Assembly (NCBI GenBank): GCA_001179505.1
Contig: CDMY01000366.1
Location: forward strand, 248,001 to 312,000
Source: Vitrella brassicaformis CCMP3155
Lineage: Eukaryota > Protista > Chromerida
Direction: 5' to 3'
Length of the DNA stretch: 64,000 bases
In this document: positions 5,214 to 61,610 of the stretch, one piece after another
How the letters are laid out: each line of letters begins with the position of its first letter
Numbering within the stretch: the stretch's first letter is position 1
Program-made: the position numbers and the translations under genes
The notes under the pieces: model-generated
Told to the model about the DNA's origin: nothing
The model's input: the letters and a program-made list of their open reading frames with translations, nothing else
Databases searched by the model: none

Positions 5214-5498
5214 GTTGGTTGGAAGACAGATAGACGCTAAGCAAGGGCTGCGTTTGATGCTCAGTGACGGCTGTGTTCGTAGTGGGGGCTATGTGTGAGA
5301 GAGCGGTTTTTATGTGTGGGCGAGCGAGCTAACAGCAGTCTCGCATTTTCCCGATAATTCGATTGACGTAAGCAGCGTCTGATCTCGAGTCTACCGTCCA
5401 TCAAGACCATCCATTCACGCAGGCAAGAGAGCAAATTGCAGACGGGATCACTACTGCAAGCAACTCCCATTGTTGGCAGCAGGAATACGGCTTACGAA

Positions 5499-26000: not shown

Positions 26001-27268
26001 TTACGAGGCCAAGGCGCGCGAGGCGCACAAGCTGCCGTCCATGGCCGAGCAGGAGGCGTCGGGCGCCCTGCCGTCGTCATGGGACAAAAAGGCCCTCGAG
26101 CGCAAGATAGGCCACCTCATGCACACGGCCGCCCAGTCCCCTTTCCCCGTCGGCCGCATCATCGCATCGCCCACCAACCTCATCATTGCACGAGTCGTCA
26201 TCGGCCCCATCCAGCCTGGCAGAAGGGTGGTCCCCGACCCAGAGGGCCCCAGTAGTAGCAGGCCCCCCTACTACCCCAGCCCCCTGAAGCGCGCCGAGGC
26301 CAGCGTGTTCCAGCTGCCGGTCGCGGCCAAGGCAAGGGCGGAGGCCGGCAACCCGCGTATGAGGAAGTTTCGCGGCAAGCAGCACTCCCCCATGCTGACG
26401 AGGAAACGAGAAGAGCTTCCCAACTCATTTACTTGTCCTGACGTGGGCACGGGGATGGGCACCATCGAGCTGGGCGACGTCGAGGAGGCCGAGGGGGCGG
26501 CTGGCGTGTGGGGGCTGGACGGTGGGGTCCACGATAGGCAGCGGCGTGCTGCAGGTGGTGGAGGTCTTGTGGAGGTTGAGATGGGCGACGAGCTGGAGGG
26601 AGGAGATTCGCACGCGACACTGACTGGCGGGGAGAGGGACGAGAGCAGCGACGTGAAGCGCAGGAGGGTGCAGGGCGGCAAGGGCGGGGAGGGGGGAGGG
26701 AACGAAGAGCAGGAGGAGGCCGAGGAAGACGATGACAAACACGACGGACGTAAGTGAGTGAGTGAGAGGAGTGGGTGGTCAGTCGCATCAACGAACACTC
26801 CCACCCATACCGCACCACCTACCTGTTTTGGTGTTCATCCTTCATCCATTCATCCATCCATTCATCCATCCATCGATCCATGCATCAGGTGAGTACGAGG
26901 TGTCTCGGATCCTGGCGCACCGCCAGCCGACGCCACAGAAACGCGAGTACCTCATCCAGTGGAAAGGTCAGTCTGCCACCGCACCAGACAGACCCCTGAA
27001 GCGCGACGACAGACAATACTCCCTGGTTGCCTTGCTGTGGTGTGTGTGTGTGTGTGTGTGCGCAGATTACCGCGAGACTTGGGAGCCTGAGTCGTCTCTG
27101 ACCAACTGCCACGGGAAGCTGGAGGAGTACTGGCGGGCCACCCCCCCGGAGCTGCTGCAGTACCGGAGCCGTCCGCCGTCCCTGGCCCAGGTCACTCCCA
27201 CAGCGGCGGCGGCCATAATGCAGCAGAGGCGGGTCAAAGGCAGCGGACCTTCCTTCTTGCGCCAATAG
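23025..27268 (+). CDS. RCC1-like repeat + chromodomain protein, paralogue B; multi-exon
   Basis: Blades VQDVAVARWHIAVLLADGRVLLW, VVCGPAAGGGAVLLENGSLWRW, VLDVAECCGDYVAVTDDGIVHEW, VTSIWLMEGATIGVHKSGRF. N-terminal RPRGRPP. Spliced chromodomain GEYEVSRILAHRQPTPQKREYLIQWK|DYRETWEPESSLTNCHGKLEEYW. Confidence 0.75.
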
Positions 27269-29049: not shown

Positions 29050-32000
29050 TCACGTAGTTGGGCATTTCAGCCGGATGACAAAAGGCCAGCCATCCTCCTC
29101 ACTGTCGAGTGTCTCGGTGGTCTGCTTCATCGGCATCCGGAACCCTTCTCCACAGCTGAGCACCGTGTCAGCCCCATCCTCAGGAGTGAAAACATAGCCG
29201 TCGAATCCCTCCTCGATGGCGTAGTAGTAGATCCAGGGGCTGGGGGTCGGCGAGGCATCCATCTCCTCCCGTGTTTGTGGGTTGGTGAGGTAATAGCACC
29301 TGTCAGGCAGGAAGCTCATCGCCGGGATGTCGCACCACTTCTCCCAGCCCCCGTGGGTGAGCGGGGACTGGAAGTAGACGGCGATGCGCTTCTTGACGCC
29401 CGGCGAGCACTCGTCCAGGATGCAGATCTGCTTGCAGGGCTTCATGTCCTTGCTCTCCTTCCCAATGAGATCGGGGCACTCTTTGCCACCGTGTAGCGGC
29501 TTCACCTGGTGAGAAAGGAGATGGGGATCCAGGCAGGGGGAAAGAAGTGAAGTGCGTGTGGGCGTCCGTGCTGTGTGTGTGAGGGTGACCTTGATGGTTC
29601 TGTGTCTGGATCGCTCTGATGGGCCGCATCTGTGGCTCCAGTCGCCCCATTCACTCCAGCTCGACACCTCACAATCGACAGCTGACGGACGGACCAATAC
29701 GCAACACGCAGACGCGGACAGATAAATGACTGACGATGGGAATGAACGGCCTTGAGTTGATCTTACGGCAAGGCACTTCGTGGCATGGTTTGATCTCTAT
29801 GAGCTCCTCAGCCTTACAGTCCTTCCCGCCGCCACTGGCCTTCCACTGCACACACGCACACACACACGTATATATACATATATACACTTGCAAAACGTGA
29901 TAGCCCACACCCACCCTCCCCTCCGTCCCTGACCTTGACAGGTCTCGTTCTGTTTCTGCTGCCGCCCTCGCACGGCTTGGAGCAGTTCCAGTCCTCCCAC
30001 TCGCCTGGCAGGCAGTCCCCCTTGCAGACGGGGGGCCATGGGTCGCCCCTCTTGGCCCCCACCTGCCGCCACTTGCCGTCTGGCAGGCAGACGGCCTCGG
30101 TCGCACCCGTGAAGGTGTAGTGGTCGGAGGGGCAGGACAAGAGGTGGTGGCGGAAGGTGCCGAAGAAATACGGCGACAGGTCAGACTTGTTGCTGGTGGC
30201 GAGCTGCAGCACCGAGGGGTTGGGGTCTTTCGGGAAGGCGCACACATCTGGCAAGACATCACACCACACACCGAAGGACGTAAAGATGAGGGTTGCTTGC
30301 ATGGGGGATATGCTCTGTCTGTCTCCCTGTCTCTCTCTCTCTTGGTCTCTCACTTTTGCGTATCTCGTAGCAGTCTATCTTCAGCTGTTCCGCGCCGATG
30401 ACGGCCATGCTGTTGGGCTCGCTGAGGTTCTTGGCCCTCCATCCGCCCCCCAGCAGCCCCCACTCCTCCAGCCCGCCCTCGCCATCGGCCACCATCTCAG
30501 GTGCATCTCTGTAGGCCTTGAAAGGGACGCCGCACCGCACAGCAGACGAGAGACGTGACGATGAGAGCCGCCACTGCCGCGTGAGGGCGCAGTATGAGAG
30601 GTAGAGGCGGCGAGAGGGGCTGCGGACGGTCATGAGGCGGTTGCGATGGAACCCCAGGTTGATCTGCACCCACACCTGGTGGGCCACGCCATTGACAGAC
30701 ACCAACCAGGAAACAAAGAAAGAGTAGTGATTGATGCGATGCATGTAGGGTCTCACACACGCACACAATCGGCCGGGTAGGGCACGTGTCAGTCATGTCT
30801 GCGTACCGGCCGTTGCCCGGCGAAGACGACAGTAGTGGGATCTGCAGATGATGCGTTTCTTCTTGCCGCCTCACTGGCCCCCCAGTGGCCGTCCATGGCC
30901 TCCACCGCCCTGGCTGCAGACTCATCCAGCATGGCGTACCAGCCAGACACGTCCAGTCGGCCAATGTACGGCAGCGCACCCGACACGGCGCCATGCACGT
31001 GGAGGTAGTGGCACTCGCTGAGTTTGTCGTCTGGGAGGGGGGCCGGGATGGGGTCTATCGAGGCCGCCTTCAACGTCGTGGGATCGGGGACGCCGTCTGA
31101 TTGATGTGAGAACAAGATGACAACAATGGATTGCATGTACGGCTGGCTATCGTGCGTCCGTATGTGGTTCGGCTCGTGTGTGCAACGTACTGCAATCTCC
31201 TGCGTCCTTGTTGCACGCCTTGGCTTCATAGCACGCCGGGTCGCAGACTCCGTCCCCGACCCAGGCACGCATACAACCAGGCGCACACTCTGAGGGAGGG
31301 AAGGGCAACAAACACAACGGAGGAATGCATCGCACCAAAGTGTCACCGATGGATGGATGGATGCATCACAGCGTGCCGTGCCGTGCCGTACCGCTGAGGC
31401 AGCTCTCGGCGGCCTTGCAAGGTTCTGGTTCCTTCTGGATGACGCACACGTCGTTGTCGGCACGCTGATTGATTGACATCGATCCGATCAACAGATTGCC
31501 AGCCACGTGAGCGAGAGATGTTATGTTGCGTGGGGGTTGGGTTCTTGCTTTCCTCTTGGCTTACTGACTAGCTGACCTTTCTGATAGTTGCAGTTGTGCG
31601 CCATCTCGTGCCATCCCCACAGAAGGCGTCGCACTGCGTCACGTTGTCCTTCTTGGTCTCGCAGATCTCGGGCACCGAAGTACTCCCGTCCACTGCAGAC
31701 AGAGGTGACGGATATGTGACACACGACAGACACCGAGACAGCCAGCCTCATTGGATTGGATTGGCTCCATCCACCCTGTGACCCACACACCCATGTGCTT
31801 ACGTAGCTCCCATCTTGGTCTGGCGGCTCTGCCTGCAACACAGGAAGTAAGTCACAGTTGTTGACATCAAGAATCAAGCACAGTGAGTGAAGGGCCAGTA
31901 CAGTACAGCAGATGAGTTGAGTGAGGGCACAGCACAGCACACGTACCGCAGTCGCCATCGTCGTTGTCACATTGGTCTGAGACGAAGCACTCCGGGTCGC

Positions 32001-37289: not shown

Positions 37290-38063
37290 TCACTGCCTCT
37301 TCCTTCTCTTTTTTCTTTCCTTGAAGTCGCTCTTGCTCCCCTCCTGGGCTCTCTGCTGCAGCTCCCCATACTTGCGCTTACTCCACTTGTCAACCTCAGC
37401 ACTCTTAAGCAGGTCGCTTAGCAGACTCTCGCCGCCCCGCCTGTTCCGCCGCCTGCTCAGCGCCCCCCTGGCGATGCTCTCCCTCCCCCCGCCCACCCCA
37501 GGCATCCCCCCCTCCACCACCTTGGCAATGTGGAAGTGAGTCGGCAGCTTCTTAGAGTCCTGGCCCTTGTAGAACCGCTTCGGGTCAGCCACACCCCGCA
37601 GACGCAAAGCCAGCAGCTCGTTCTTCACCTCGGGGGTCAGTTCCTGCTTGGGCAGGCCGAACCACTGGTCCAGCTTGTCGGCCTGCTCCTTCTTGCGCTG
37701 CTTCTGCCGCTCCTTGGTGCTGTCGAGAGGAGCGGCCTGCAGGGGGGAGGACAACGACTGCATCTGGACCACTTGAGGGGGGAGCTTGGCCTTAAGCTGC
37801 TCGATGGTTCGCTGACGCGCCGAGAGAGCCGACTGCGTGTTTGTGGCGGATGCGGGGAGGGGGTCGTCTTTGGCCGTGGTTCGTTTCTTCTTGCCGTGAT
37901 AGTGCTGCAGGAGCCTGACGTTGCTGCGTAGGTCGACTGTGGTGTCATGCTGGCTGTCGTCGAGTGCTGAGATGTCGATGGCCTCAAGCTCTGGGACGCT
38001 GGTGGGGATGAGGGGACGCGCAGAAGCCGCCTTGACCTTGCCCAGATCAGATGACGCTGACAT
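37290..38063 (-). CDS. FCF2: Fcf2-domain pre-rRNA processing protein (DNTTIP2/Tdif2-like); single exon
   Basis: WFGLPKQELTPEVKNELLALRLRGVADPKRFYK...PTHFHIAKVVEG...SLLSDLLKSAEVDKWSKRKYGELQ. Confidence 0.88.
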   Translation of the reverse strand: MSASSDLGKVKAASARPLIPTSVPELEAIDISALDDSQHDTTVDLRSNVRLLQHYHGKKKRTTAKDDPLPASATNTQSALSARQRTIEQLKAKLPPQVVQMQSLSSPLQAAPLDSTKERQKQRKKEQADKLDQWFGLPKQELTPEVKNELLALRLRGVADPKRFYKGQDSKKLPTHFHIAKVVEGGMPGVGGGRESIARGALSRRRNRRGGESLLSDLLKSAEVDKWSKRKYGELQQRAQEGSKSDFKERKKRRKRQ

Positions 38064-38149
38064 CGGGATGAAAAAGATGCTCGAAGAGATCCACAGCGCG
38101 GGAAGAAGGGGAAAGAACGAGGAAAGTGGGAAGAATGGCGACAAGTGCC

Positions 38150-38614
38150 AAGCTCGCATGAAGCGACTAGAGGATTGAACGAATGGCTCGGGTGCACTGG
38201 CAGCGCTGGACGGTCCCGAGTAGGTGCTGTGAGGTGAAATCGATGGGTTGGTGCATTGCGCCGCACAACGCTGTTTCATCTCAGTGACACGTGATCATTA
38301 AGTAAGACTGGCATTACAGTGTCACCAGACAAGAGCCGGTTGCGAAAGCGTCCCTGTCATGGGGGAAGGAACGGTTGCGAAAAGGAGGCAGATCGTCGGA
38401 TCGTCCAGACGAGAGATAAGCTCGCAAGCGACGAGAGGATTGAACGAATGGCTCGGGTGCACTGGCAGCGCTGGACGGTCCCAAGTAGGTGCTGTGAGGT
38501 GAAATCGATGGCTTCGTGCGTTGCGCCCCGCAATGCTGTTCATCTCAGTGACACGTACTGCAAGCACACTGAGCTCGTGTGATCATTAACGAGACTGGCA
38601 TTGTGTCGCCAGAC
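38150..38614. repeat. Imperfect direct repeat of about 180 bp (copies ~38150-38330 and ~38418-38614) upstream of FCF2
   Basis: Core GAGGATTGAACGAATGGCTCGGGTGCACTGGCAGCGCTGGACGGTCCC(G/A)AGTAGGTGCTGTGAGGTGAAATCGATGG is present twice with one mismatch. The flanks align with indels. Confidence 0.95.
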
Positions 38615-39326: not shown

Positions 39327-40804
39327 TCAGTTGGCCTCGAGGAGCTGTCGGATGCATGGGTCCTCACTGGTGGGTGCGGGGCAGGTCTTGATGGCGTCGT
39401 TGGCCATGGCGTCGGCCATGTCGTTGCCGGGCACTCCCGTGTGACTGTACACGTGGACGAACCGCAGCATCACCGGACCCATGCTCTGACGCTCCCACGA
39501 CACACACACACACACGCACACACACAAACCGATGGGTGTGGTGTAAGCCTTGGGTCGACTGATGGTACGGATTGATGATTCGAACACACCTGCACGAGCT
39601 TGTCGAGTGCCTTGATCAGGTCCTGGTTCTCGACAGCCAGCACAACACAACACATGGGAGGGGGGCATCGGTCTGGCTCGTCTCGTTGCGTCTGCATGAC
39701 CTGGTTGTTGGCGTTGCGCCATCCGTTCTGCTTCCACTTGGGCGTCCACTCCCAGACACACTTGATGGCATACTCCGAGTCAGAATACAAGACAATCGGG
39801 CAAGACGCCAGAGGCCCTTGACTGCAAACACACACACACACGTGTCGATGAAGTGTCCGCTCCATCCTTCCCTTCCGTGGGCACCTACCGGTATGCGTGC
39901 AGCGCCTTAATGATGGCGAACAGCTCCGCCCGCTGGTTGGTCTGGCGGCCGTACAGCCGACCTCTACAAACACATAATGAATGCACACAGAGAGAGAGCC
40001 AAGTGAGCAGCCGCATGGCAGGAACAGGCCTTGCTTCGTATGCGCTCGAAGGCACCGTACCTGCCCTCGACCCCCTCGCCCGGCGCCACAAACGACCAGC
40101 CAGCCTGTGCGTTCGGTTGGCCGTTGTTGATGCACGCACCGTCCGTGAAGACGTAAGCGAAGTGAGGGAGGGGCTTGACGTGAAGAGTCATTGCAGGGCC
40201 CCGGCCGCCGAAGGTGATGTTCCCGCCTGCCGCCATGATCCATCCACCACCAATGATGGCCTGCAGCAATGGCATCCATACGTCGAAAGAAGCTTCCTTC
40301 GTGCGTGCGGTGACTGAATCGACTCCCTCCCTGCCCACCTGCACTCGCTCGTCGCCGAAGAAGTGTCGGTCCTCGACGACAATGGCCGTGAGGGGGATGC
40401 CATTGCCATTGGCTGCATTCGACACACGAGCCGTCACAGTGGCTATCGGACACATGAGCCCGCCTCCGTGACACTGAATAGGGAAGGAAAGACAGAAACC
40501 GGTCGCTGGCTGCGCGAGCGGTCATCACAGCACCACGTACTGCACCACCCACCTGCACGTTGACACGGTCCATGTCTTTGCGCAGCGGGTGGAGGTGCTT
40601 TGTGTTGAGCCATGTGGGAAGCGCCTCCCTCGAGAAGACAGTGCAGCCGCCGCCGGTGCTGACGAGACAGCGGATCTTGGAACCGCCCGAGAAGATGACC
40701 TCGCCGAGCATATCATCAGGAAAGTTCTCTCCGGCGACCAGCAAGCCGCCAACAGTGGAGCTCATAGAGTACGGAGCCGGGCCGTAATCGGTGGTCCCTG
40801 ACAT
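39327..40804 (-). CDS. RNASEH1: RNase H1 (eukaryote-type RNase HI) with an N-terminal degenerate retropepsin-like domain; about 5 introns
   Basis: VFTDGACINNG..AQAG, QTNQRAELFAI, YSDSEYAIKCV.EW..KWKQNGW, ENQDLIKALD, FVHVYSHTGVPGNDMADAMA: all four acidic catalytic residues plus the His are present. N-terminus KIRCLVSTGGGCTVFSREAL...VQVGRE resembles the retropepsin consensus. Confidence 0.85.
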
Positions 40805-41302
40805 GGCGCAGGAAAGCCCAGACAAAAAGAGCCGCAAGGAACGGTTGGGAAGAGGAATCGTCGAGACGACGAATGAAATAATGGAACAGAGTCAAAATCG
40901 GTCCCGTATTGGCCACCGTGCAGTGAAGTGGTGTTCATCATCAAGGGCAGCAAGCGGTTCACCTACTGCGCCGAGTAAGGCAATGGAGTGAATGCACAAC
41001 CGCCGGTGATGAAGAGCCGCACATCAAACACGATGACCATCCATCCATCGATTCATCCATCGGTTGAGAGGGACAGCCAACAAAACCAAGCCAAAACCTC
41101 GCTCACAGACACACCCACGTACGGCAGACAGGCAAGCATCGCAAGTCACACAAGGAAAGGGGCGGCCAGCCACTCCTCACTTCCAGATCCATCCATCCAT
41201 CCACGCACCATCAGGAAGCGCATGCATCACGCAGCAAACAGGCGTTGTTCAGCTACAGTGGCTAGGTAGTGAGGGTATGGCTGGCTGGTCCTGGCTAAGC
41301 GG

Positions 41303-44300
41303 CTAGAGAGGTCGGTCACTGCCTCCTGTGCGTGACGTGGTTCTTAATGTGTGGTTGTTGTGCTGAGGCGTGCCGATGGGAAACAGTTCCGGCCCGACCA
41401 CGGGGTGGGCCGCCTCTTCGGCAGCCCGCTCCTCCTTCTCGGCCTCACCAGCGTCATACATACGGTCCTACACACACGCACACATATGGATGGATGGATG
41501 GGCACACAGCCAGATAGATGGGCATGGTCGGCTAGTGGTGTGTACCAGAGGTTTGATTTTGATGTCTGCGTATGGCTGTTCTTGTTTGACGTCGATGAAG
41601 CCCTTGGTTCTGAGCACCAGCAGCTCGAAGAACCCTCGGGCCACCTGATCGACCGATGCAACAGCACAGGTGTGCAGCAAGTGTGCTGCTGTGTGCTGGG
41701 GTGCTCGCTGCCCGACTGACCGTTTCGCGATTCATGCCCTTGCAGACTTTCTTGAATGAGAGGTCGCCGTCCTTAGCCTTGCTCTTGTCGGCCATCTCCT
41801 TCAGATACATCATCATCTGACCCACCACACACAGCACAGAGCAAAATCGACCACATGTTTGCATTCTCATTACGCGTGCGTGTGTCGGTTTCTTACACAC
41901 CTTGGTGGTGTTTCTGGAGTATCCGATGAAGTTCTGCTGCTGGCTGTTTTGCTGCTCCGACTCGCGGCGCTCCAACACACCCTCCGGCCCCTGACGCAAC
42001 ACATCAGCTAATCCACCACCATCACCTACTGCAAAAGCACCAACAAGCAACAACAAGCACATGAAAGGACGGGCGGACGGACGTCTGCTTGGTGGCATTT
42101 ATAACACACTCACCGTGGTCCTCCGGGTCTGATGGCTGTCCGTCCATCTCCTCCTCGTTGCGGCCAGGAGGGGCGGGAGGGGCCGCCGCGGCAGCAGCAG
42201 CGTCACCATCAGCTTCAGGCTCAACACCTGGACACATACATGACAGACAGACAAGGGGAGAAGAATGCAACCTAAAGCTGCTTGGCTTGCTGTGCGGATA
42301 ATGCTGCCGCTATGTTATTTACCGTTCTGCATCGGCTCCTCCTGGTCCTCATGCTCACTGCAGACAGCAGAGAGGACCACAACCACGAGAGCACCTTTCG
42401 GTCTGCGTGCGTGTGTGTTGCATGTTGTGTGTTGTGTTTTGTGCCTACCGCAGGTCCTCCAGTCCGGCGGGCATGAAGTCGCCCAGGTCTATGTCCTCCG
42501 CGCCCTTCATGTCCATCTCGTCGTCCAGCGGCTCCTCCTTGGCCGCACCGCCTGACGGGATGTAGCCCTCCAAACGACGCCTACATGAAACACACACACG
42601 CACAACAAAGACACACGGATACAGGGGGTGTGTAGGTGTGTGAGGTGATGTGATGTGATGTGGTCTGGTGGCCTGTGTGTACTTCTGTCCTGCGTTGATG
42701 CGTTTCAGGAGCCTCGTCAAACGCTTGCCCAAACCTGAACGGCAGGCACAGACGGACCGAAATATGAGCATGCGGGCAGTCGTGTCCATCGCCCCCCTGT
42801 GTGTCTCACTGATCTCCATCATGTGACGTGCTGACCGTGTATGTGTACGGGTATGGGTGGCATGAGGTCGGGGTCGATGGGGTAGGGCGGGTAGCTCCGG
42901 TCCAGGATGTCGTCACGGTTCTGTATCCAGTCCTCCGTCACGCTGCCCACGCACAGACGGACATCACACACACGAGGGGTGCAGAGCGAGCGTGTGCATG
43001 TGTGTGTGTGGTTTGCGCACGTACGCTTGGGTCAGCATCGTGGTGGAGTCGACTTTGGTGGGCTTGTGGCGGTCGACTTTGGTGGGCTTGTCGCGGCCGC
43101 CTCCCTTCTGCTTCTGCTTAGCCGCGCCGCCCTCAGCCACAACATCGCCGTCACTACACACACCACACACAGCACCAAGTGTTCTCTTCTCCCTCTCTCT
43201 CCCTCTGCCCATGATAGGGTGTGCTGTGCTGTGCGTACACTTCTTCATCCTGGTCTAGTCCCAGATCCTTCCAGAACTCGGGCTCGTTCTCGAGGGGCGG
43301 AGGCGAGTCGTCCAGACCACCATACATGTCCGCACCGTCGAGGTCGGGCGGCGCCATGTCCTGGAAGCCATCCTGGTTGGCCGACATGGGAGGCAGCTCG
43401 CCATCGCCTTCGCCGCGACCAGCAGGAGACTGAACACATGGGAAGCACACATGGGTTGACCGTGTGGTGTTCTTCGTGTGTGGTGTGGTGTGGTGTGGTG
43501 TGGTGTACCCTGCGATGTGCGGTGGATCCGGGAGGGGCCTCTGAGGGCGCGCCTTCCCCTACGTCGCCAAACACATCCGCATCCTGACACCGACACACAC
43601 AAGAGAACACGGATCAGAGGATGGCCCATCGTTCTGGGTGAAGTCTTTGGCTGGCGTCACGTCACCTGCAGGTCCTGCGCGGCCGCAGCTGCAGCAGCCG
43701 CCTCGCCACGAGGACGCTCTATGTCTATGTCCATCTGTATGTACATATTGATAGACACACATGACCAATACGCAGTTCATTTGGTCTTCTCATCTGGCTT
43801 ACGGCGTTGTCACCCTCCCCTCCGATGCCCTCCTGCCCTCCGCCTTCGCCGCTACCGCCACCACCACTCGCACCGTCGAGCACCTGACCAAAGCACCGAA
43901 GGGATCCATGCATGCTGCGTGTTGTGTTGCATTGTCCCATCTTGCCCACCCACCCACCGGTCCTGCATCGGGTGCTGGGGGTGATTCGCCCCCCTCTGGC
44001 TCTCCAGCAGGGGCGGCATCTGCGTCTGCATCCGCATGTGCGGCAGGCGCGGGCGAAGGTGTGCGGGGGGCGGGAGCAGCGTCCAGGTCTCCCAGTCCAT
44101 CCAAGTCACCACCCATTCCGAACTCGAAACCACCAATGTCGTCAACACCCATACCACCATCCTCAAACTCATCTGAGCACCGCAAGGTAGGTAAAGCGGG
44201 GGGTCAGGTGCGTCCATGTCTGTGTGTGTGTGTGTGTGTGTGGTCCGGTCCTCACTCCTGGGCAGCATGTTCATGTCGTCTAGGCCGCCCAGCAAGTTGT

Positions 44301-45178
44301 CGTTGGCCTGGTCCGCCAGAGCGATGTTCGCACGCTGACCACCACTGAACCATCACCAACCACACAGACGAGAACACCGCATAACCACCACAGAACACAC
44401 AGCGGGGGCATTGTGCGTGGTGGTGGTGTTGTGACTACCGTGTGGCCGGTGTGGGTAGATTGGGCTGGTCGGGCACGTCCTCGAACACGTCCTCGCCGTC
44501 GAAGGGCTGCGTAGGGCCACCCAAATCCGGACCACCAATCGCACTGACACGCACACCAGACAGACACAAGACATCCATCCATCAATCTTCCGCAGCGATG
44601 GTGTGTGCTCTGTCTGTTGCTGGCTGTGCGCACTCACCGCATCTCATCGTCTTGCTCTTGCTGTCGCGACGTGGCATCCTTACGGCCGCGCTTCTCGCCA
44701 TCCTTGTCGCCGCGAGACTCGTATTGCTGACACACACCAAACACACACGATGGCCAAGAAACACCATGTGATGAGTGGAGAGGGCGGGTCAGATGACGCA
44801 GTCAGTCACCTACCTGGTTGAGCTTGTGGAGCATGTCGATGCACTCCTGAGAGGAGAGGAGGCAAATGCATAGATCCGCACAGACGCAGTCATCCTCCGC
44901 CTGTTTCCTCTCCCCCCTTCATTCGATTTGCCATTGTGAATGCGTACCGCTTCGTGGTAGACCGTTTTTGCGAGGAAGAGCCTGGATACGCCGATGAGTG
45001 CGCTGCTGGTGAGTCTGAGGCTGCTGGACACGCCGGAGGGGTCGCTGAGGAGCTCCTCGATGGCGAGTCCGATGTCGACATCCTGCACCTCGCGCTTCTT
45101 GAGCTTCTTGTCCGACTGGAACGCCGCCACCCACACCGGCGTCAGCGACTTGTTGCTCGTGAAGTTCAACGAGTTCAT
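41303..45178 (-). CDS. RAD21: Rad21/Rec8-family alpha-kleisin cohesin subunit; multi-exon
   Basis: N-terminal KSLTPVWVAAF..KKLKKREVQDVDI...SLRLTSSALIGVSRLFLAKTVY. C-terminal winged helix RETVSRGFFELLVLRTKGFIDVKQEQPYADIKI. Acidic/Pro-rich centre. RAD21 versus REC8 is not resolved. Confidence 0.85.
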
Positions 45179-45420
45179 GACGGTCACTGACGCTGATGCG
45201 ATGGCTGGCTATCAAAGAGGGGTGCAACCAACAAAGTGATGGAAAATGTCTGGCGCCCCTCGCTCAGCCCATCCTTTCGTGCGCGTCAGACGCGAGGGGA
45301 AAAGCGATCGTTTTGGCTCGGTTTGACGTTTCTGGCTCGCATTCTCCTCGCAAACGCCTCCATCCTTCCTCCTCGTGCCGTCAGCGCACGCCTGCCTTCC
45401 CTGTCATCTCATTTGTTGCA

Positions 45421-47733
45421 ATGGATGCCAAGTTGATGGATGCTCCCATGGACGGCAGCAGCGCTGAGCCAACGTCAAGCCTCACCGCAGAGGACGCCCC
45501 ATCGCTGTTCGCCAAGTTCAACGTGGAGGGCAAGCTTGGCGAAGGTTCGTACGGCTACGTCGTCAAGTGCTCGACCAAGGCCAGCACCAAGAAGAGCACC
45601 AAGAAGAAGAGCACCAACAAGCGGCTGGGAGATTGGCAGGGCAAGCAGGATTCCAAGGCGGTCAAGGTGCAGATCTTCCACCAAGACATCAGCAAGTACC
45701 AGGTGGGTGGGTGCAAGAACAAGCAAACAACGGATCCGACGACTCATTCATTCCATCGATCATCATGCTTTGTCTTTCGTCCTCAACAGCTGCGTGACGC
45801 TGCCATCTGTCGCTACCTGAGCGGCCATCCCAACCTCGTCAGCTTCGACAGCGTGTGGACGGGGGAGGGCATCTGTCGCGTGCAGTCGGAAATGTCAAGT
45901 GGGGTGGACTCGCATCTGTCGTGCGAAGGGCTGTGGCGTGCCGAACACTGCAAACACCTATACATGGCAATGGAGTGAGTAAGAACGCAGCCAGCCAGCC
46001 AGACAGACAAAGAACACAGGGACGCAAGAATGCGACTGGGACAGGCAGGGGGCTGTCTGTTGTTTGTATCTTTGTTTGTTTGTTTGTGTGCACAGGTTGG
46101 CTGAGACAGATCTGTACAAGCATCTGCACACAAAGAAGCTCAAGCGTATCGGTCGTCACGTGGTCACGGTCCCCGACAGACGCATCTGCCTCTCGCCCAA
46201 GGAAGTCAAGAGAATCATGTACCAGGTACGGAAGGACAGACCGGAAGGAGCCCGCCTTGTCCGTCTTGCGGAGTCTGTGTGTTGTCTGTCCTTCCTTCGT
46301 CGCTTGTGTCAGTTGCTGTTGGGTTTGGCGTACATGCAGACCAAGGGCATCATCCATCGGTCGCTCGTACACACAGGATGTGTGGGGAGCGACCATGACC
46401 TGTCTGTGTCTGGTTTGTGCAGCGACCTCAAGCCCGGCAACATTTTGATGTCGGGCAAACGTGTGATGATCACGGACTTCGGCCACTCTCGCCTCGTGAC
46501 CGGCACACACGACCCCATCAGCCACTCGGTAGGCACATGAATGAGGAAAGACATGCACAACGAACACACACAGACGGACAAACGCGTGATTGATGCCCTT
46601 GTGTGCATGTGTGATGGGCAGAATCCATACTTCCTAGGCACGCCAGGCTATCGCTGCCCTGAGCTCATCCTCGGCGCCAAGAACTGTGAGCCAAATATGA
46701 GAGCAGGACACAACACAGTTCTTCGCCTGTGGACACGTCTCTTCTGTGTGTGTTGGGTATCAGACGGCACCAAGGTGGACATGTTCTCTGCTGGCACCAT
46801 TTTGATGGAGATGGCTACAGCCCGGAAGCCATTCAGCCACCTGGGCAGCGACTACGGCTCCCTCATCATGATGTTTCAGCTGCTGGGCATGCCACCCCAG
46901 GACAGGGTCAAACAAATGGACTTCGTCGGGAAGGTGCGCACATACTCCCTCCCTGAGGTTCCCTCCCTCCCTCCCTCCCTCCCTAAATGACACACCACAC
47001 CCGACCTCCCCTCTCCCCATACACCCTTTCTCTTTCTCCCTTTGCAGAGCCACGCGTTCCCGCGTCTGCTGCCCAAGACGAAGTCGCAGGTGCGCCAGGC
47101 CCTCGACGCACTATGTGACGGCAAGAACAAACTCACCGACGGCCAATTCAGTCTGCTCTACGAGTAAGCCAAGCCACCAGCACAAGGAGGGAAGGGGCAG
47201 GCGGAACACGCAAGTGTGGTCTCTTCTGTGTGCTGTGTGTCAGCCTGTGGCGCGTTGATCCAGCCGAGCGCATCTCTGCCATTGAGGCCATCAACCACCC
47301 CTACTTCGACGACCTCGACAAGACGGTGAGATGGATGAAGGGTCGGCATTTGATGCACTCACTGACTGACTCGTCGCCCATTTCCATATGTGCACACAAG
47401 AAGAGTGCCTTCTGCACCGCATCCTCATCCTGTCTCTCTGTCCCCCCGTCCCGTTTCCTTCATGTGCAGCGATACGCCCACTGGGCCCACGACCTCGGCG
47501 CCGCGTTCGATGAAGACGGCCACACCGCCTTCTCTGCAGCAGACGCAGACGACAGCACCAACCCCTCCACCGCCGCCCCGGGCCAGCAGCAGAATCAGTA
47601 CAACCTGCGAGAGCGGCTGAAGCGGCCATCGCCGTACGACGGCACCGTCAAGTCCATGTTCAAGACACCACCAGCCAAGAAGAGGCGCACCACGCATTAC
47701 GCCAACGCTCCCAGCCGCCCCAAGAGAGAATGA
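45421..47733 (+). CDS. CMGC/CDK-like Ser/Thr protein kinase (divergent); multi-exon
   Basis: LGEGSYGYV, AVK, HPNLV, LYMAME, spliced HR|DLKPGNIL, ITDFG, GTPGYRCPELILG, KVDMFSAGTIL, DPAERISAIEAINHPYF. Confidence 0.85.
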
Positions 47734-52350: not shown

Positions 52351-52610
52351 GGTATGGTGCAGCGTAGCAAGGAGGGGGAGGGGAATGCAGCGCCTTTGAG
52401 GGAGATCCGGTCCAGATTCGCATCAAAGCTCGCGGATCGCCAACTCGAGCTAAGAAAAATGGCGACAAAAGCTGCATAGCCGCTCACGCTGGCCTGATTC
52501 GGCTGTCCTGAGTGTGAGTTCTGATGGCCGCGATAATCGGTCATCCATTTCGGTGACTGGCGTTCGACCTGCTGCGCTGCTTGCTTCTGAGTAGCTGAGG
52601 AGAGGAGACG

Positions 52611-55600
52611 ATGAGCGGCGCCACACACCAGCACCCGGCGGCAGGGGCCACGACTGAGAAGGAGTGCCAGACGGGCAAGAAGGACCCCGTGCTGGGCGCG
52701 TACTTGCAGAAGGCCAACTTCCTGACCTCGCGGCACCGGCTGACGGAGGCCCTGGAGGTGTACGAGCAGGCCATCCGCAAGTTCCCGCACAACTCGGACC
52801 TCTGGAACTGTAAGGGAGTCTGCCTCAAGTCACTCGCCAAGAACGATGGTATGTATACATGTGTGGATGGATGGGCACTGCACACACGGGCAAGGCAAGA
52901 GGGACTGCGGTTGGTTATGTTTATTGGTGTGTGTATTTATTGGCTGGCGTGTGTGTTGTGTGTGCACTGCAGAGGCCTTCACGTGTTACGAGAAGGCCCT
53001 CGAGCTGGACCCGTACAATGCGGGGGCGTGCAATAACAAAGGTGGGTGAGGCAGGCAAGGAAGGACGGACGCTTGGACGACTGACTGACTGCCACTTGAT
53101 GGGTTCGTTGGCGTCAGGTGTCATTCACAAGGAGAAGGAAGACTACGAGAAGGCGGTGAGTAGCGAGAGAGACGGAAACAAACACGCCGAAGACAAGACG
53201 TCCCTCGAACATACATAGCGTGTCTGTCTGTCATTGGGACACCATGTGTATATATCCCTCAGATCCAGTGCTACATTGTGGCCCTGCAGCTGGAGCCCAA
53301 CTACACAAGTGAGTTAAAAGAGTGACCGACCGACCGTAGGGAGGGAGGGAACAGTAGCTAGCGCACAGCAGGCATGGCGACAGACATCTCATGCTATCTA
53401 TCGCTGCCTACCTATGCCGATACGTGCATCACGTGTGGTGTGCAGCTGCTGTGCACAACTTGGCGATAGCGCTGACTGACCTGGGCACCAAGCGGAAAGG
53501 GGAGGGCCGGACAGAAGAAGGTCAGCCGAGCCGACCTACTCACTCACCTCACCCACGAAACCCCACTAGTCTGTATGTCTGTCTGTCTGTTCTGATTTTA
53601 CTATGCCATCCGCTCGTCGGTCCCCCAGCGCTGGAGCGTTACCATCAGGCGATTCGCACGGGTGCGTCGTACTCTCCGGCGTACTACAACTTGGGAGTCA
53701 TGTACAGCGAGTTGGGCGACTACCAGAGGGGGATGGAGATGTACCAGGAGGCCGTGAGGCTCAACCCCAGATACGTCGAGGCCTACAACAACATGGGCGC
53801 CATCTGCAAGAACCAGGGACATGTACGTGACGTGATACGCACACACACGGGGAGGGACGTCTCTGTGTGTGTGTGTGTGTGTGGATCAGTTGTACCAGGC
53901 GATAGCCTTTTACGAGAAGGCGCTGAGCATCAACCCCAACTTCCAGATGTCTAAAGGTCAGTCAGGAGGCCTGCAGTGGGGAGGAAACGCCAAGCTTGCA
54001 GAGACCCTCCCCATTCATTTGCTTCCTCGCTGCCTGCGCGTGTGTTTCACTTGACAGGGAACTTGGCGGTAGCGTTGACGGATTTGGGAACGCACGTCAA
54101 GATGCAGGGCGACCTAAAGGTGCCGTGCGTGTCTGTCTGTCGCCTCGCCACACACACGTGACGTGTGTGGCCTTGAACTGCACTGCCTGCCTGATGTTTC
54201 TATATCTCTCTCTGTGTTGTATGTGTGTGTGGCTCTGCTCTGCTCTGTGTGTGTCTGTCTGCTTGCTTGGTTGTGTCAGGGCGGCATCAAGCTGTACAAG
54301 CGGGCTTTGGTGTTCAACCCCCACTATGCTGACGCCTACTACAACCTGGGTAGGCCATTCAGGACACTACATGTAGCAGTAGCAGCGGCAAACGACAGGA
54401 CCGTCACACATGGATGTGTGTGGTGTGTTGGCTGCTCTGTTTAGGTGTTGCGTATGGTGAGCAGTGCAAGTATGACAAGGCCATAGTGCACTACGAGTTG
54501 GCCGTGCACTTCAACCCCCGATGCGCTGAGGCCTTCAACAACCTGGGGGTCATCTACAAGGTCAGCCAGCAACAAACACACGTGCAGACGGACAGCCACC
54601 GTCTGTGTGTTGTGTGTGATGTGCACTGCAGGACAAGGAGAACCTTGACAAGGCCATCTACTACTACAACAAGGTCCTGGAGATCAACCCCAGCTTCGCG
54701 CAGACACTCAACAACATCGGCGTCATCTACACCGTCATCGGAAAGGCAAGCCAAGCCCCCCTCAAGCCCCCCGCCACACACACACACACACACACCCATG
54801 GCTGTGTCATGTCATCTATCTAACCCAGATGACCGAGGCATACGAGTACACGCGTCGAGCGATCGACGTGAATCCCAACTACGCCGAGGCCTACAACAAC
54901 CTGGGTGTGCTCTACCGGGACCAGGGCGACGTCGAGCTCGCCGTGCAGGCCTACGAGAAGTGCATCTCTATCGACCCCAACTCCAAGAACGCACTGCAGA
55001 ATAGGTGCGTGCGCTACGTCGGTCGGTGTGTCGGATGGATGTGATTGATACAGGCGTGGACGGTGGACGGGGTGTGTGTTGTGTTGTGTTGTGTGCTTGG
55101 CTTGGCTCGTGTCGGTCGGTCAGGTTGCTGGCGTTGAACTATTTGGCGTCGGTGAGTGTCCAGGACATCTTTGAGGCGCACAGGCAGTGGGGCATGCAGT
55201 TCACCAGCATGAACGTCAACATCGGTAGGCACCCCACCCCTCCCACCCCTCCCAACACACACACACACACACCCCACACACAGCCTTCCATGTGGGCGTG
55301 TGCACACACACACACTTACACGTTAGGTGGTTCGTTGCAAGTGCGCCGGCCGTTCACGTCGTGGAAGGTGTCGTCGTCTGCCGACCGCGTGTTGCGTGTG
55401 GGGTACATCAGCCCCGACTTGTTCACCCACAGCGTCAGCTACTTCATCCACGCACCCCTCAAGCACCACGACCCCGCCAAAGTTCAGGTGTACGTCTACG
55501 CCAACGTCGTCAAGGAGGACGACAAGACACAGGTGAGTCAGGAACGAGCGGATGGGCAGACAGAGAGGGGGACAGAGACGGAGAGGGTGGTTGATGGAAT

Positions 55601-55641
55601 GGATACGACGATTGGTTCCGTGTCTTATGTGTGTGTCATGA

Positions 55642-55672
<31 letters not shown>

Positions 55673-56797
55673 GTTCAAGCAGCTGGTGCCTGTGTGGCGG
55701 ACGATCATGGGTATGGGCGAGTATGACGTGGCGAAGCTCATTTACGAGGACCAGATTGACATCCTGGTCGAGCTCACGGGACACACGGCCAACAACCGCC
55801 TCGACGTCATGGCATGGAAGCCCGCGCCAGTGCAGGTGGGCACACCCACCACTCAGCCAGCCACATGGTCTCTCTCTCTCTCCCTCTGTGTGGGTGTGGG
55901 TCTGTGTGGATCGATCGTTCGATGGGTCAGATCACCTGGATAGGCTACCCCAACACCACTGGTCTGCCCAGCATCGACTATCGCATCACCGACTCCATCG
56001 TCGACCCCCCCTCCACCAACCAGCCCTACGTCGAGCAGCTGCTGCGGCTACCCAAGTGCTTCCTCTGCTACACCCCCGCGCACGACGCGCCAGAGGTCTC
56101 GCCGTCGCCCTGCCTGCAGAATGGATTCATCACCTTCGGCAGCTTCAATAACCTCGCCAAGATCGGCCCACAGGTAAGGAATATACGAGCCAGTTCATTC
56201 ATCAAGACAGCGGCATGGAAAGGCCTTTCGTTGCGTGTCATTTAATGGTTTCATTGTGGCAGGTTGTGCGTCTGTGGAGTCGCGTGTTGAAGGCTGTGCC
56301 GAGCAGCCGTTTGTTTGTCAAGGCCAAGCCATTCGCCAACAGCCATATCCAGAAGAAGTTCATGGCGCTCTTCGAGGCGGAGGGCATCAGCGCCGATCGC
56401 ATCGACCTCATGTGTCTCCTGCCCATGTGTGCCGAACACCTAAGGGTCAGTCACAGTGAATGACACCTATACCTACCTACACCACGCACACAGAAAGAAA
56501 GGGAGACACCCGTGTTGTGTTTGTCTCCACCCACCAGGCGTATTCGTTGATGGACATAGCGCTAGACACCTTCCCCTACGCCGGCACGACCACCACGTGC
56601 GAGTCGCTGTTTATGGGCGTCCCGGTGGTGACTTTGCGGGGCCAGTCCAACCACGCGCACAACGTCGGCGTCACACTGCTGACCAACATCGGCCTCTCGG
56701 ACCTCGTCTGTGAGAGCGAGGAGGACTTTGTGAGGGTGGCCGTGCAGGTAAACTGCTGGACGGGCAATGCATGCATACCTCCATCACTCAAAGGAAC

Positions 56798-56832
<35 letters not shown>

Positions 56833-59060
56833 TGTGTAGATGGCGTCCGACGTGGGTCGTCTGTGCAGCTTGCGCGAATCGATGCGCAATCGCATGCTCA
56901 GCTCGACGCTGTGCCACGGGGTGTCGTTTACCAAGAACCTTGAGCATCTCTACAGACAAGTCTTTACGCGCTACACAAGACACGGCCCCATCTCACGCCC
57001 AACGCCCTCAATCGCTTCCACGTCGACAAACAACGACCAGTCGTCGGTGTCGGGGTTCGCCAACTCACAACAGCAGAACGGAGGAAACGGATCGCAGCCG
57101 CAGCACAACGCACCGTAAGCCAAGCCGATGGGAGGGAGGAGTGGACAGATAGCGCATGGAGACAGAGCTCTAAAGCACTGCATCTATTCTCTGTCCACTG
57201 TTTGTGTGTGGTTCTTGTGTCAGCAACCCGCTGCTGCCGCCACTGCCCCCGTTTGGCGGTGTCAAGCAGCAGCAGCCTGTCCCGGTGGCCATCCCGTTGC
57301 TCATGCCCAACGGTAGCCCACCACCAGCACCCGCCCCCGTGCCCACGCCCTTCCCGCCGCTGCACCCACCGCTGCCGCCCGGCCTCGGCGTCCCCATGCC
57401 GTCACATCCACCACTGCCAATGGTGAGAGAGAGAGAGAGGGACAGACAGACAGAAAGGTCGCTCGCACAGGCAACAAGCCGTCATTTCATTCTGGTGCAG
57501 AGTTTCCACTCTCCTCCTACGGCGGAGGCCCCGGCGGACTCGACCATGATGATGTTTGACGATCATCACAATCCTGTCAGCGGAACAGCAGGGGGAGGAG
57601 GTGGCACCATGGACGGTGTGGGCGGCAGCAAGCCGGCGCCCTCGAGCCCCGGCAGCCCCATCAAGAAGGTGCCCAAGACGAGCAGAAGGTCGCCGCCGGG
57701 GAGCAAGACGAGCGGTGGCCATCCACGGCCCAACGTGCCGTCGCCGGCCGGGCAGCGGGTCGTCTGGAGGAGCAGCGGTGGCATCGCCGCCGGATCCCCA
57801 CCAGGGCCTGCGGTGGCTCTCAGACCGGGGGTACGTGACTGACGTGGATGGATGGATGGATGGATCACAACTCTCTCTTGTCTTGTCTTGTCTGGCTGTT
57901 GTTGTCCAGGCCGTTCCCCCCGTGCTGCCACCGCAGCCAGGCGTCCCCGCATCCCCAGGGCTAGGTGTGCCCGTCCCCTTCCCGCCGCCATTAGCGCCGT
58001 CTCTCGCTCTCGCCTCACCGCCGCTGCAGGACCCCCTCGCACCACCAGACATCTCAGAGTCGCCAGGGGACCACCCAGACCTCCCGAACGGCACAGCACA
58101 TGATGCGAGATACCTCTGTGCGAATGGTGTGGTGCCGGGCTTCCAGCCAGGGGGACGGCCGAATGGTCTCAATGGTTTGCACCCCCACAATGGGGCGCCC
58201 GTCCCTCCGCTGCCGAGCAACCCTTTTGCAGCAGCGTTGCCGGTGGCACTGCTGCCAGGAGGGGCGGCTCCACCCCTGATGGGCTTCGCTGCCCAGGCTG
58301 CGCCACCACTGACCTATGGCCAGCAGAACGCACCACAAAACGGTGAGGAGGGAGGGGGGAGGGACTCAGTGGGTGGGAGGGTATCGACATGTGGTGCTTT
58401 GTGTGTGTGTGTGTGGATGGGATGAATGCGATGCGTTTAGGTCCGATTGTTGTCGATTTGACGGATGGTGCTGAGGGCGAGGCGGCAGAAGCGGATGTCC
58501 CCGCGAGGCGCAACAAGGCCTCTAGGAGGGAACAAGCACATCAGCAGCATCAACAGCAGCACCCATCGCCCCGCAGGCACACGAACGACAACCCCACCGG
58601 TGGCCCCGGACCGGTCGATCGCAGGAAAGACGATCCCACTGCTGCCGCAGCAGTACCATCATCCGACCAACCAAGACACCAGCAGCAGCAGCAGCAGCCG
58701 CCAGCTGAGAGCGATGCCCCAGCAGCTGCAGCTGCATCGGCGGCGGCGGCGGCTGCCAATGAGGATGACCACCACGCTTCGTCATCATCAGGCCATCGGT
58801 CGCCTCACCAGCGCGGCAACAGCCAAGAGGGCGTGGACTCCTCAGAGGGCGGGAGATCGTCAGAGGCGAGTGAGCAGGCCGACGACGATGCGACAGAGGA
58901 ATCAAGGGGTGAGGACAAGGGGCCGCAGGTCCCACATGACAAGAGGGATGGGGCTGGGGCTGCTGAGGTGAGGCGAGACGGGGGCGGGGGATGCCACGAG
59001 GAAGGGCTGAATAGAAACCCACAGGACGCCAACCAGAACATGAGGCTGCTCGCCGTGTAG
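52611..59060 (+). CDS. SPY: SPINDLY-type TPR glycosyltransferase (GT41, protein O-fucosyltransferase) with a long disordered C-terminal tail; many exons
   Basis: More than 10 TPRs (e.g. [34 protein letters not shown]). Catalytic region [39 protein letters not shown]|[48 protein letters not shown]. Exons after about 57120 are joined by inferred splicing. Confidence 0.92.
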
Positions 59061-61453: not shown

Positions 61454-61610
61454 TTGTGTGTGTGACAGTCGATCTGTCCAGCTCCTTGATCAGCGGGCCT
61501 CTGAGAAAAGGCACACAGGTGCTCAGGGGTCGTAGAAGCCAAGGGATGCTACACTACCAACTTCCACTCGCGAAGATGAAATTTACGCATCTCCGTCCCC
61601 TCCCGCTGCC

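What the first reader, a model, noticed from the sequence alone, without database searches (positions are those of the whole stretch)
39327..40804. Retropepsin-like domain lacking its catalytic Asp, fused to an intact RNase H1 in an intron-containing gene
Seen in sequence: the spliced protein begins EVIFSGGSKIRCLVSTGGGCTVFSREAL...DRVNVQ|CHGGGLMCPIATVTARV...IPLTAIVV...DERVQVGREGV. It then runs into an RNase HI with DGAC, RAEL, SDSEY, SHTG and ADAMA intact. Established: retroviral, LTR-retrotransposon and Ddi1-type aspartic proteases have x-[AC]-L-[VI]-D-[TS]-G-A, a Gly-rich flap and a late IL-G-x-D strand. Eukaryotic RNase H1 normally carries an N-terminal hybrid-binding domain instead. Inference: the N-terminus is a retropepsin fold with the catalytic Asp replaced by Ser (codon 40658-40660). 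No reverse transcriptase, integrase or LTR is visible and the gene has about 5 introns. It therefore looks like a domesticated or shuffled PR-RNase H gene in which a dead protease could act as a dimerisation or substrate-binding module. I do not know this architecture from other organisms.
Basis: partly seen in the sequence, partly recalled or inferred. Interest (0 to 1): 0.82.

Follow-up and report, generated by a model that had tools for sequence, protein, structure and literature searches.

The report
Dead protease fold caps RNase H1
An alga related to malaria parasites has a second, spliced copy of its RNase H1 gene (the enzyme that removes RNA from RNA:DNA hybrids) in which the usual hybrid-binding domain is replaced by a domain predicted to have a retroviral-protease fold but lacking the catalytic aspartate, which likely serves as a non-cutting tether rather than as a protease.

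Summary
Largely confirmed, with corrections. Spliced contigs join all exons into one 324-aa product (P0001, listed as Vitrella brassicaformis). The gene has six introns, not five. The N-domain has no sequence relative among 1.84 billion representatives. Its MSA-free Atlas model matches retropepsin clusters at TM 0.64-0.71 (9 of 10 rows). Sequence-profile support is weak. Ser49 sits at the catalytic Asp, and the late Asp is Gly. The RNase H keeps D169/E209/D235/H287/D297. It is sister to the species' separate canonical HBD-RNase H1 (96/87), so it is a host duplicate, not shown to be a retroelement RNase H. It keeps 23 of 26 conserved columns, but evolves faster, and an apparently recent splice-acceptor shift deletes five loop residues. 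Best reading (0.45): a lineage-specific RNase H1 paralogue with a pseudo-protease tether replacing the HBD. Main rival (0.3): a decaying chimera with a vestigial fold. Dimerisation is untested. Not found earlier in this scan or in 10 literature searches.

The parts
40553..40804 (-). Exon 1 (aa 1-84): low-complexity N-tail (1-31), first strands of the retropepsin-like domain, S-T-G motif, helix, start of the flap strand
   Evidence: Spliced contigs; translation; an in-frame stop lies upstream and 40804 is the first ATG of the frame
40658..40660 (-). Ser49 (AGC), at the position of the catalytic Asp of D-[TS]-G
   Evidence: aligns with the D column of bacterial retropepsins
40474..40552 (-). Intron 1 (79 nt, GT-AG, phase 0), inside the protease-like domain
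   Evidence: Joint in X1, X2, X6, X7
40339..40473 (-). Exon 2 (aa 85-129): Gly-rich flap turn CHGGG and following strands
40261..40338 (-).
   Evidence: Joint 40259/40338 in X1, X2, X6, X7
40061..40260 (-). Exon 3 (aa 130-196): late strand IIGGGWI, terminal strands, 4-residue linker KPLP and start of the RNase H. The domain junction lies inside this exon, with no intron at it
40237..40257 (-). I131-I137 IIGGGWI: hydrophobic-hydrophobic-Gly strand of retropepsins; Gly133 kept, Gly135 in place of the Asp often found two residues after the Gly
   Evidence: Gly column conserved in 90% or more of rows; IIGAD/LLGYD/LIGLD in relatives
40141..40143 (-). RNase H Asp169 (first D of DEDD)
39964..40060 (-). 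Intron 3 (97 nt)
39889..39963 (-). Exon 4 (aa 196-221) with QTNQRAEL, Glu209 at 39926-39924
39822..39888 (-). Intron 4 (67 nt)
39701..39821 (-). Exon 5 (aa 221-261) with SDSEY (Asp235 at 39781-39779) and WKQNGWR
39623..39700 (-). Intron 5 (78 nt, in frame, no stop). Its last 15 nt still read AVENQ, matching PVSNQ of the paralogue; CTG stands at 39640-39638 where an acceptor would restore them
   Evidence: Joint in X1, X2, X6, X7; CTG read unchanged in unspliced contigs of X3, X5, X8; retained form P0003
39590..39622 (-). Exon 6 (aa 262-272)
   Evidence: table 8
39486..39589 (-). Intron 6 (104 nt, TG repeats)
   Evidence: Adjacent record positions 955/956 (X1) and 3674/3675 (X6), table 8
39327..39485 (-). 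Exon 7 (aa 273-324, stop): His287 (39443-39441), Asp297 (39413-39411) and a P-x-P-T-x-E-D-P-x-I tail shared with the canonical paralogue

Best explanation
This is a spliced duplicate of the alga's own RNase H1 gene whose hybrid-binding domain is replaced by a predicted retropepsin-fold domain without its catalytic Asp, and that domain likely acts as a non-cutting tether that pairs or positions the nuclease. Shown: one mRNA, all RNase H catalytic residues, sister relation to the canonical paralogue, no HBD, Ser at the Asp position. Predicted: the retropepsin fold. Inferred: (1) the nuclease still cuts the RNA of RNA:DNA hybrids; (2) the N-domain cannot cut peptides; (3) retropepsins work as homodimers (established knowledge), so the dead domain would most likely self-associate and hold two RNase H domains close together through the 4-residue linker, giving avidity in place of the lost HBD; its open cleft could instead or also bind a partner peptide; (4) it arose by recombination of a protease-coding segment (from a gypsy/copia element or a Ddi1 copy) into an RNase H1 duplicate, long enough ago for two introns to lie in the protease part.
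For: Single spliced contigs in X1, X6, X7. Atlas model: 9 of 10 nearest structures carry a retropepsin name or family, TM by query 0.64-0.71 over 114-121 residues. End-to-end colinear alignment with bacterial retropepsins puts S49 on D and G133 on G. An alignment-guided AF2 model (pLDDT 69, pTM 0.67) finds Ddi1 and retroviral proteases first. The RNase H is 48-50% identical to P0004 (149 bits against 103 for the next unrelated row), sister to it at 96/87, and shares its C-terminal tail. It keeps 23 of 26 conserved columns against 57 of 131 elsewhere (Fisher p 2e-5). GC3 is 0.74 in the N-domain, 0.82 in the RNase H and 0.80 in the neighbouring Fcf2 gene. The HBD has been suggested to promote dimerisation and processivity (PMC7657459, passage). 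The species holds gypsy and copia DNA as possible donors (PMC4501334 supplement).
Against: No orthologue was found, so no conservation test of the N-domain is possible. Local sequence-profile scores are not significant and Pfam finds no protease family even at E 10. Atlas feature scores (0.86-0.88) are below the 0.9 lead bar, and the structure rows are under the bar for naming a family. The AF2 model was guided by retropepsin rows, had no control, and gave only TM 0.35-0.45 and Z up to 7.0. Both retropepsin Asp positions have become small residues, which can mean decay. The RNase H branch is 0.93 against 0.34 for the paralogue, and five residues of the substrate-binding loop are spliced out.
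Confidence: 0.45

Rival explanations
1. A relaxing chimeric duplicate: the RNase H half was kept by selection for a time, the retropepsin-like domain is a vestigial passenger with no current role, and the gene is now drifting.
For: Branch 2.7 times longer than the paralogue's. The acceptor of intron 5 appears recently shifted: AVENQ still reads in frame inside the intron, and an intron-retained form exists. Three conserved columns are lost (G185S, V deleted, G286S). Single species, with a canonical RNase H1 as backup.
Against: Open frame across 7 exons with correct splicing in 4 runs; all five catalytic residues kept and 23 of 26 conserved columns; the N-domain still folds as a compact retropepsin in prediction although no sequence relative is detectable, which suggests long retention of the fold.
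Confidence: 0.3
2. Remnant of an LTR retroelement that had captured the host RNase H1 directly behind its protease (protease-aRH-RT order, like Tat structure 2), later lost RT and integrase and was domesticated. This concerns origin; the present function could still be as in the best explanation.
For: Protease and RNase H are fused with a 4-residue linker and no intron at the junction. Tat elements with an additional RNase H upstream of RT in pol are described (PMC10508981, parts 1-2 read). The species has about 113 kb gypsy and 213 kb copia DNA.
Against: No RT, integrase, gag or LTR nearby. No protein of 568-2000 aa carrying this RNase H was found (0 of 85 candidates, weak evidence). Described additional RNase H domains of Tat, Chronos and Archon are of the archaeal clade, whereas this one is of the HBD-bearing host type. 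Four introns lie in the RNase H part.
Confidence: 0.12
3. The N-domain is a dead copy of the Ddi1 retroviral-protease-like domain and works as a protein-protein adaptor (peptide or ubiquitinated-substrate binding) that brings the RNase H to stalled forks or DNA-protein complexes.
For: The first Foldseek hits are Ddi1 domains of Leishmania and Toxoplasma (E 4e-4 to 7e-4). The M-L start lies 17 residues before the catalytic position in both P0001 and the two Ddi1 chains printed. Introns inside the domain suit a host-gene origin.
Against: Ddi1 is well conserved, yet phmmer finds no Ddi1 at E<=0.001 among representatives or at E<=10 in the PDB. VIA-align ranks lentiviral proteases level with or above Ddi1. 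The model was biased by bacterial rows. A Trp at 136 resembles LTR proteases more than Ddi1 (recalled, not tested).
Confidence: 0.08
4. The N-domain is not a retropepsin: the motifs are chance and the language-model fold is a hallucination.
For: Non-significant local scores; single-sequence AF2 failed (pLDDT 31); Atlas feature scores under 0.9.
Against: TM 0.64-0.71 over nearly the whole domain to many independent retropepsin clusters; motifs occur in the right order and spacing, and the late motif appears only after correct splicing.
Confidence: 0.05

Closest known systems
Eukaryotic RNase H1 (HBD PF01693 + RNase H PF00075), e.g. human RNase H1 (2QK9) and the species' own P0004
   Same: Catalytic domain with DEDD and His, QTNQRAEL and WxxNGW motifs (E 2.5e-22 to 2QK9; 48% to P0004).
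   Different: No HBD; retropepsin-like domain instead; linker of about 4 aa against about 65 aa in P0004; five residues of the loop after NGW missing in the spliced form.
Retropepsins (clan AA): Ddi1 RVP domain, retroviral and LTR-element proteases, bacterial TIGR02281/APRc
   Same: Predicted fold; x-L-V-[D]-T-G strand, Gly-rich flap, hydrophobic-hydrophobic-Gly late strand followed by a helix.
   Different: Catalytic Asp is Ser; late Asp is Gly; no detectable sequence similarity; fused to a nuclease with no RT, UBL or UBA.
Tat LTR retrotransposons, structure 2 (additional RNase H upstream of RT in pol; PMC10508981)
   Same: A captured cellular-type RNase H placed upstream of RT, that is, on the protease side of pol.
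   Different: Those are mobile polyproteins with RT, native RH and integrase, and their added RNase H is archaeal-type; here a single-copy six-intron host gene with a host eukaryote-type RNase H.
Domesticated retroelement proteases such as ASPRV1 and PEG10 protease (search listing only)
   Same: Retropepsin domain in a host gene.
   Different: Those are described as proteases; none is listed as fused to a stand-alone RNase H.

Membership tests
RNase H type I catalytic domain (PF00075) | Profile match over the curated cut-off | tested here: met
   E 9.4e-30, 104 bits against cut-off 25.8
RNase H type I catalytic domain (PF00075) | DEDD carboxylates and catalytic His | tested here: met
   D169, E209, D235, D297, H287
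RNase H type I catalytic domain (PF00075) | Cleaves RNA in RNA:DNA hybrids | not testable with these tools
   Needs an assay; the five-residue loop loss could lower activity
Canonical eukaryotic RNase H1 | N-terminal hybrid-binding domain (PF01693) | tested here: not met
   Absent in P0001 at E<=10; present in P0004 at E 1.4e-10
Canonical eukaryotic RNase H1 | Catalytic domain groups with host RNase H1 | tested here: met
   Sister to P0004, 96/87, in a 36-row tree without retroelement or Chromera rows
Retropepsin fold (clan AA) | Single-lobe aspartic-protease fold | tested here: met
   By prediction only: TM 0.64-0.71, 9 of 10 rows; biased AF2 model agrees
Retropepsin fold (clan AA) | Significant sequence match to a clan AA family | tested here: inconclusive
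   Pfam none; local tests not significant; end-to-end 21, 6 and 1 of 200 shuffles
Active retropepsin protease | Catalytic Asp in D-[TS]-G | tested here: not met
   Ser49, read unchanged in the runs laid
Active retropepsin protease | Obligate homodimer | tested here: inconclusive
   See Tried and rejected
LTR retroelement pol | RT and integrase in the same unit, LTRs | tested here: not met
   0 of 286 ORFs with such a family; no flanking LTR-like repeat; neighbours are Rad21/Rec8 and Fcf2
Ddi1 | UBL/UBA domains with an RVP domain | tested here: not met
   No such Pfam domain in P0001; only the fold resembles Ddi1 RVP

The most novel reading that the evidence does not exclude
A working RNase H1 paralogue that uses a catalytically dead retroviral-type protease as an obligate dimerisation or peptide-docking module: a two-headed RNase H built from a pseudo-protease, a third way (besides the HBD and fusion to RT) of giving an RNase H avidity for hybrids, in the free-living sister lineage of apicomplexans.
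Probability: 0.3. Interest if true: 0.72.

Novelty: new variant of a known kind. Interest (0 to 1): 0.5.

Why it matters
RNase H1 enzymes are known to gain grip on hybrids through an HBD or through fusion to reverse transcriptase. A host RNase H1 carrying a dead retropepsin would be a new architecture and a natural test of whether forced pairing can replace the HBD. It is also a clean case of gene birth by shuffling a protease fold into a housekeeping duplicate. The limits are plain: one species, no orthologue, a predicted fold, and signs that the gene may be relaxing.

Tried and rejected
Whole genome: none held, so no genome-wide search for DTG-bearing paralogues, intron comparison with P0004, or the species' Ddi1 and LTR proteases. 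Homodimer prediction of residues 22-162 without alignment: no verdict, score 0.01, neither for nor against. Single-sequence AF2 of P0002: pLDDT 31, unusable. No run is on record as RNA; splicing is read from contig joints, and contig depth was not used as a measure of expression. N-domain relatives: none (2 hits of 24 candidates, both containing this same N-domain; 1 hit, itself; 0 in PDB; 3 loci, RNase H part only; 4 plasmid records at E 2-9, chance level; 0 of 5). Longer proteins with this RNase H: 0 of 85. Local HMM and hhalign against bacterial retropepsins: not significant; one search printed a score of -1.1 bits and then failed before its shuffle count. P0002 (329 aa) was considered as a second isoform or strain allele and rejected: it is P0001 up to the QTNQRAELFA stretch and P0004 after it, the crossover lies mid-exon in a 29-nt stretch identical in both genes, which fits an assembly chimera. 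A non-canonical TG acceptor for intron 5 was considered; no contig showed it. An upstream in-frame extension or fusion with Rad21 was rejected (in-frame stop before 40891). A serine-type active site was considered unlikely on chemical grounds and not tested. Supplement of PMC6668581: no RNase H entry. Earlier findings of this scan: none by sequence or place; one unrelated bacterial note by words, not used.

Full report
Gene structure. The locus is a minus-strand gene from 40804 to 39327. Four (X1, X2, X6, X7; three study codes) show GT-AG joints; three (X3, X5, X8) are unspliced. The joints give six introns: 40552-40474, 40338-40261, 40060-39964, 39888-39822, 39700-39623 and 39589-39486 (the last read from adjacent record positions). 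X1, X6 and X7 each hold all exons in one contig, so the N-terminal and RNase H exons are joined. The spliced frame is 324 aa and equals P0001, listed as a Vitrella brassicaformis protein annotated only as ribonuclease H. No other letter was read within the gene in any run laid, which covers the Ser49 codon. The runs may all be one strain, and none is on record as RNA.

The stretch VGREGV, cited as the late IL-G-x-D strand, opens the in-frame 78-nt intron 2. After splicing the protein reads DERVQ|AIIGGGWIMAAGGNITF, which aligns with IIGAD/LLGMSF strands of real retropepsins. Intron 5 is cut at a CAG that removes AVENQ, the match of PVSNQ in the paralogue; CTG stands where an acceptor would keep them. 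An intron-5-retained product exists in the collection (P0003, 350 aa), and X2 has an 82-nt contig across that intron end, which may be retention or DNA.

Is the N-domain a retropepsin? By sequence it is an orphan: 1 hit (itself) among 1.84 billion representatives, none in PDB at E 10, no protease family in Pfam at E 10 or NCBIfam. I gathered 60 bacterial retropepsin domains (of 61 loci tried). Local scores were not significant: 65 of 2000 shuffles reached the HMM score and 14 of 150 the hhalign score, though both put Ser49 on the catalytic Asp. An end-to-end profile alignment was colinear, with 21, 6 and 1 of 200 shuffles reaching the score for three profiles (30, 38 and 60 rows; z 1.5, 2.1, 2.6); this scoring was my own, tried after the local tests failed. 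The strongest evidence is the Atlas's own model of the protein (whole-protein pTM 0.54, pLDDT 0.67): for residues 25-160, 9 of the 10 nearest structures carry a retropepsin name or family, the tenth has none, at TM by query 0.64-0.71 over 114-121 residues. Its feature scores (0.86-0.88) are lead-level only. An AF2 model guided by 30 bacterial rows (A3, chosen after A2 misaligned the middle) reached pLDDT 69 with Ser49 ending a strand and the late Gly strand followed by a helix; its first hits are Ddi1 and retroviral proteases (Foldseek E 4e-4, TM about 0.43; Z 7.0, rmsd 4.4, 94 aligned). That model is biased by its alignment and had no control. I put the fold at about 0.9. With Ser for the catalytic Asp it cannot work as an aspartic protease (established mechanism).

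The RNase H half. It passes PF00075 and keeps D169, E209, D235, H287, D297. The same species has a separate canonical RNase H1 with an HBD (P0004). P0001's domain is 48-50% identical to it, shares a C-terminal P-x-P-T-x-E-D-P-x-I tail not seen in the five other proteins printed beside them, and is its sister at 96/87 in a 36-row tree (P0002 and P0003 left out; no retroelement or Chromera rows; the protein rows were found with the chimera P0002). In PDB it scores E 2.5e-22 to human RNase H1 and 0.003 or weaker to native foamy-virus and gammaretroviral domains. So the nuclease is a host duplicate. It keeps 23 of 26 columns conserved in 85% or more of 20 other proteins, against 57 of 131 identities to P0004 elsewhere (p 2e-5; P0002, P0003, P0019 and the locus rows left out), which shows selection after the duplication. 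Against this, its branch is 0.93 versus 0.34, and the loop deletion looks recent.

Context. Neighbours are a Rad21/Rec8 gene upstream and Fcf2 downstream; 0 of 286 ORFs of 110 aa or more matched RT, integrase or gag families, and no LTR-like repeat flanks the gene. In X1, X6 and X7 the contig runs on into the upstream gene; in X2 it breaks between 40850 and 41018, a weak hint of a separate start. The domain junction lies inside exon 3 with a linker of about four residues, and two phase-0 introns lie inside the protease-like part. GC3 is host-like.

Mechanism. Most likely (0.45) an RNase H1 duplicate whose HBD was replaced by a dead retropepsin that tethers or pairs the nuclease. Pairing is inferred from the family's homodimeric nature and from the suggestion that the HBD itself promotes dimerisation and processivity (PMC7657459, passages). 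Rivals: decaying chimera (0.3); remnant of an element with protease next to a captured RNase H (0.12), with a precedent in Tat structure 2 (PMC10508981, parts 1 and 2 of 3 read) and donors in the genome (PMC4501334, passages and supplement file 11; files 13-16 not searched); dead Ddi1 adaptor (0.08); not a retropepsin (0.05). The donor of the protease domain is unresolved.

Novelty. Ten literature searches (listings and abstract starts only, except the papers named above, passages of PMC5603734 and the supplement search of PMC6668581) showed no description of this gene or architecture; the library lacks most subscription papers. The whole-protein Atlas search listed 7 rows, all RNase H families with none naming a protease domain (small clusters are not searched). 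Verdict: a real, apparently species-restricted new domain architecture; new variant of a known kind; interest 0.5.

Noticed in passing
window 39916-39944 and 39745-39781: A 29-nt stretch coding QTNQRAELFA is identical in the canonical RNase H1 paralogue, also in unspliced contigs, although the proteins are only about 50% alike; codon bias or local gene conversion. It explains the chimeric transcript P0002.
   Followed up: partly
window 39640-39623: Apparent loss of a splice acceptor (CTG where CAG is expected) turned 15 coding bases into intron; a small, recent-looking case of intron boundary sliding.
   Followed up: partly
window 38161-38275 and 38426-38540: 115-nt direct repeat at 93% identity over the 5' part of Fcf2; contigs of X5, X7 and X8 show a joint going back 257 bases and four other letters, suggesting a further tandem copy or a local misassembly.
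   Followed up: no
window 41300-45208 (-): Rad21/Rec8-family cohesin gene directly upstream; its spliced 3' exons share a contig with the RNase H gene in X7, and X1 and X6 contigs also run on past 41200.
   Followed up: partly
window 37293-38294 (-): Fcf2 pre-rRNA processing gene in one long open frame directly downstream.
   Followed up: no
window 52599-57149 (+): TPR repeats followed by glycosyl transferase family 41 pieces: an O-GlcNAc transferase or SPINDLY-like gene.
   Followed up: no
window 61536-62783 (+): Swi3 (replication fork protection) match at E 4e-5, just under the curated cut-off.
   Followed up: no
window 1044-5288 (-), 8828-9409 (-), 12700-13362 (+), 26762-27265 (+), 29053-30374 (-), 45983-46987 (+): Hydin/ASH-domain ciliary gene, S8e-family gene, Rab3-GAP catalytic subunit, a chromodomain exon, spondin-like TSP1 repeats and a protein kinase.
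   Followed up: no
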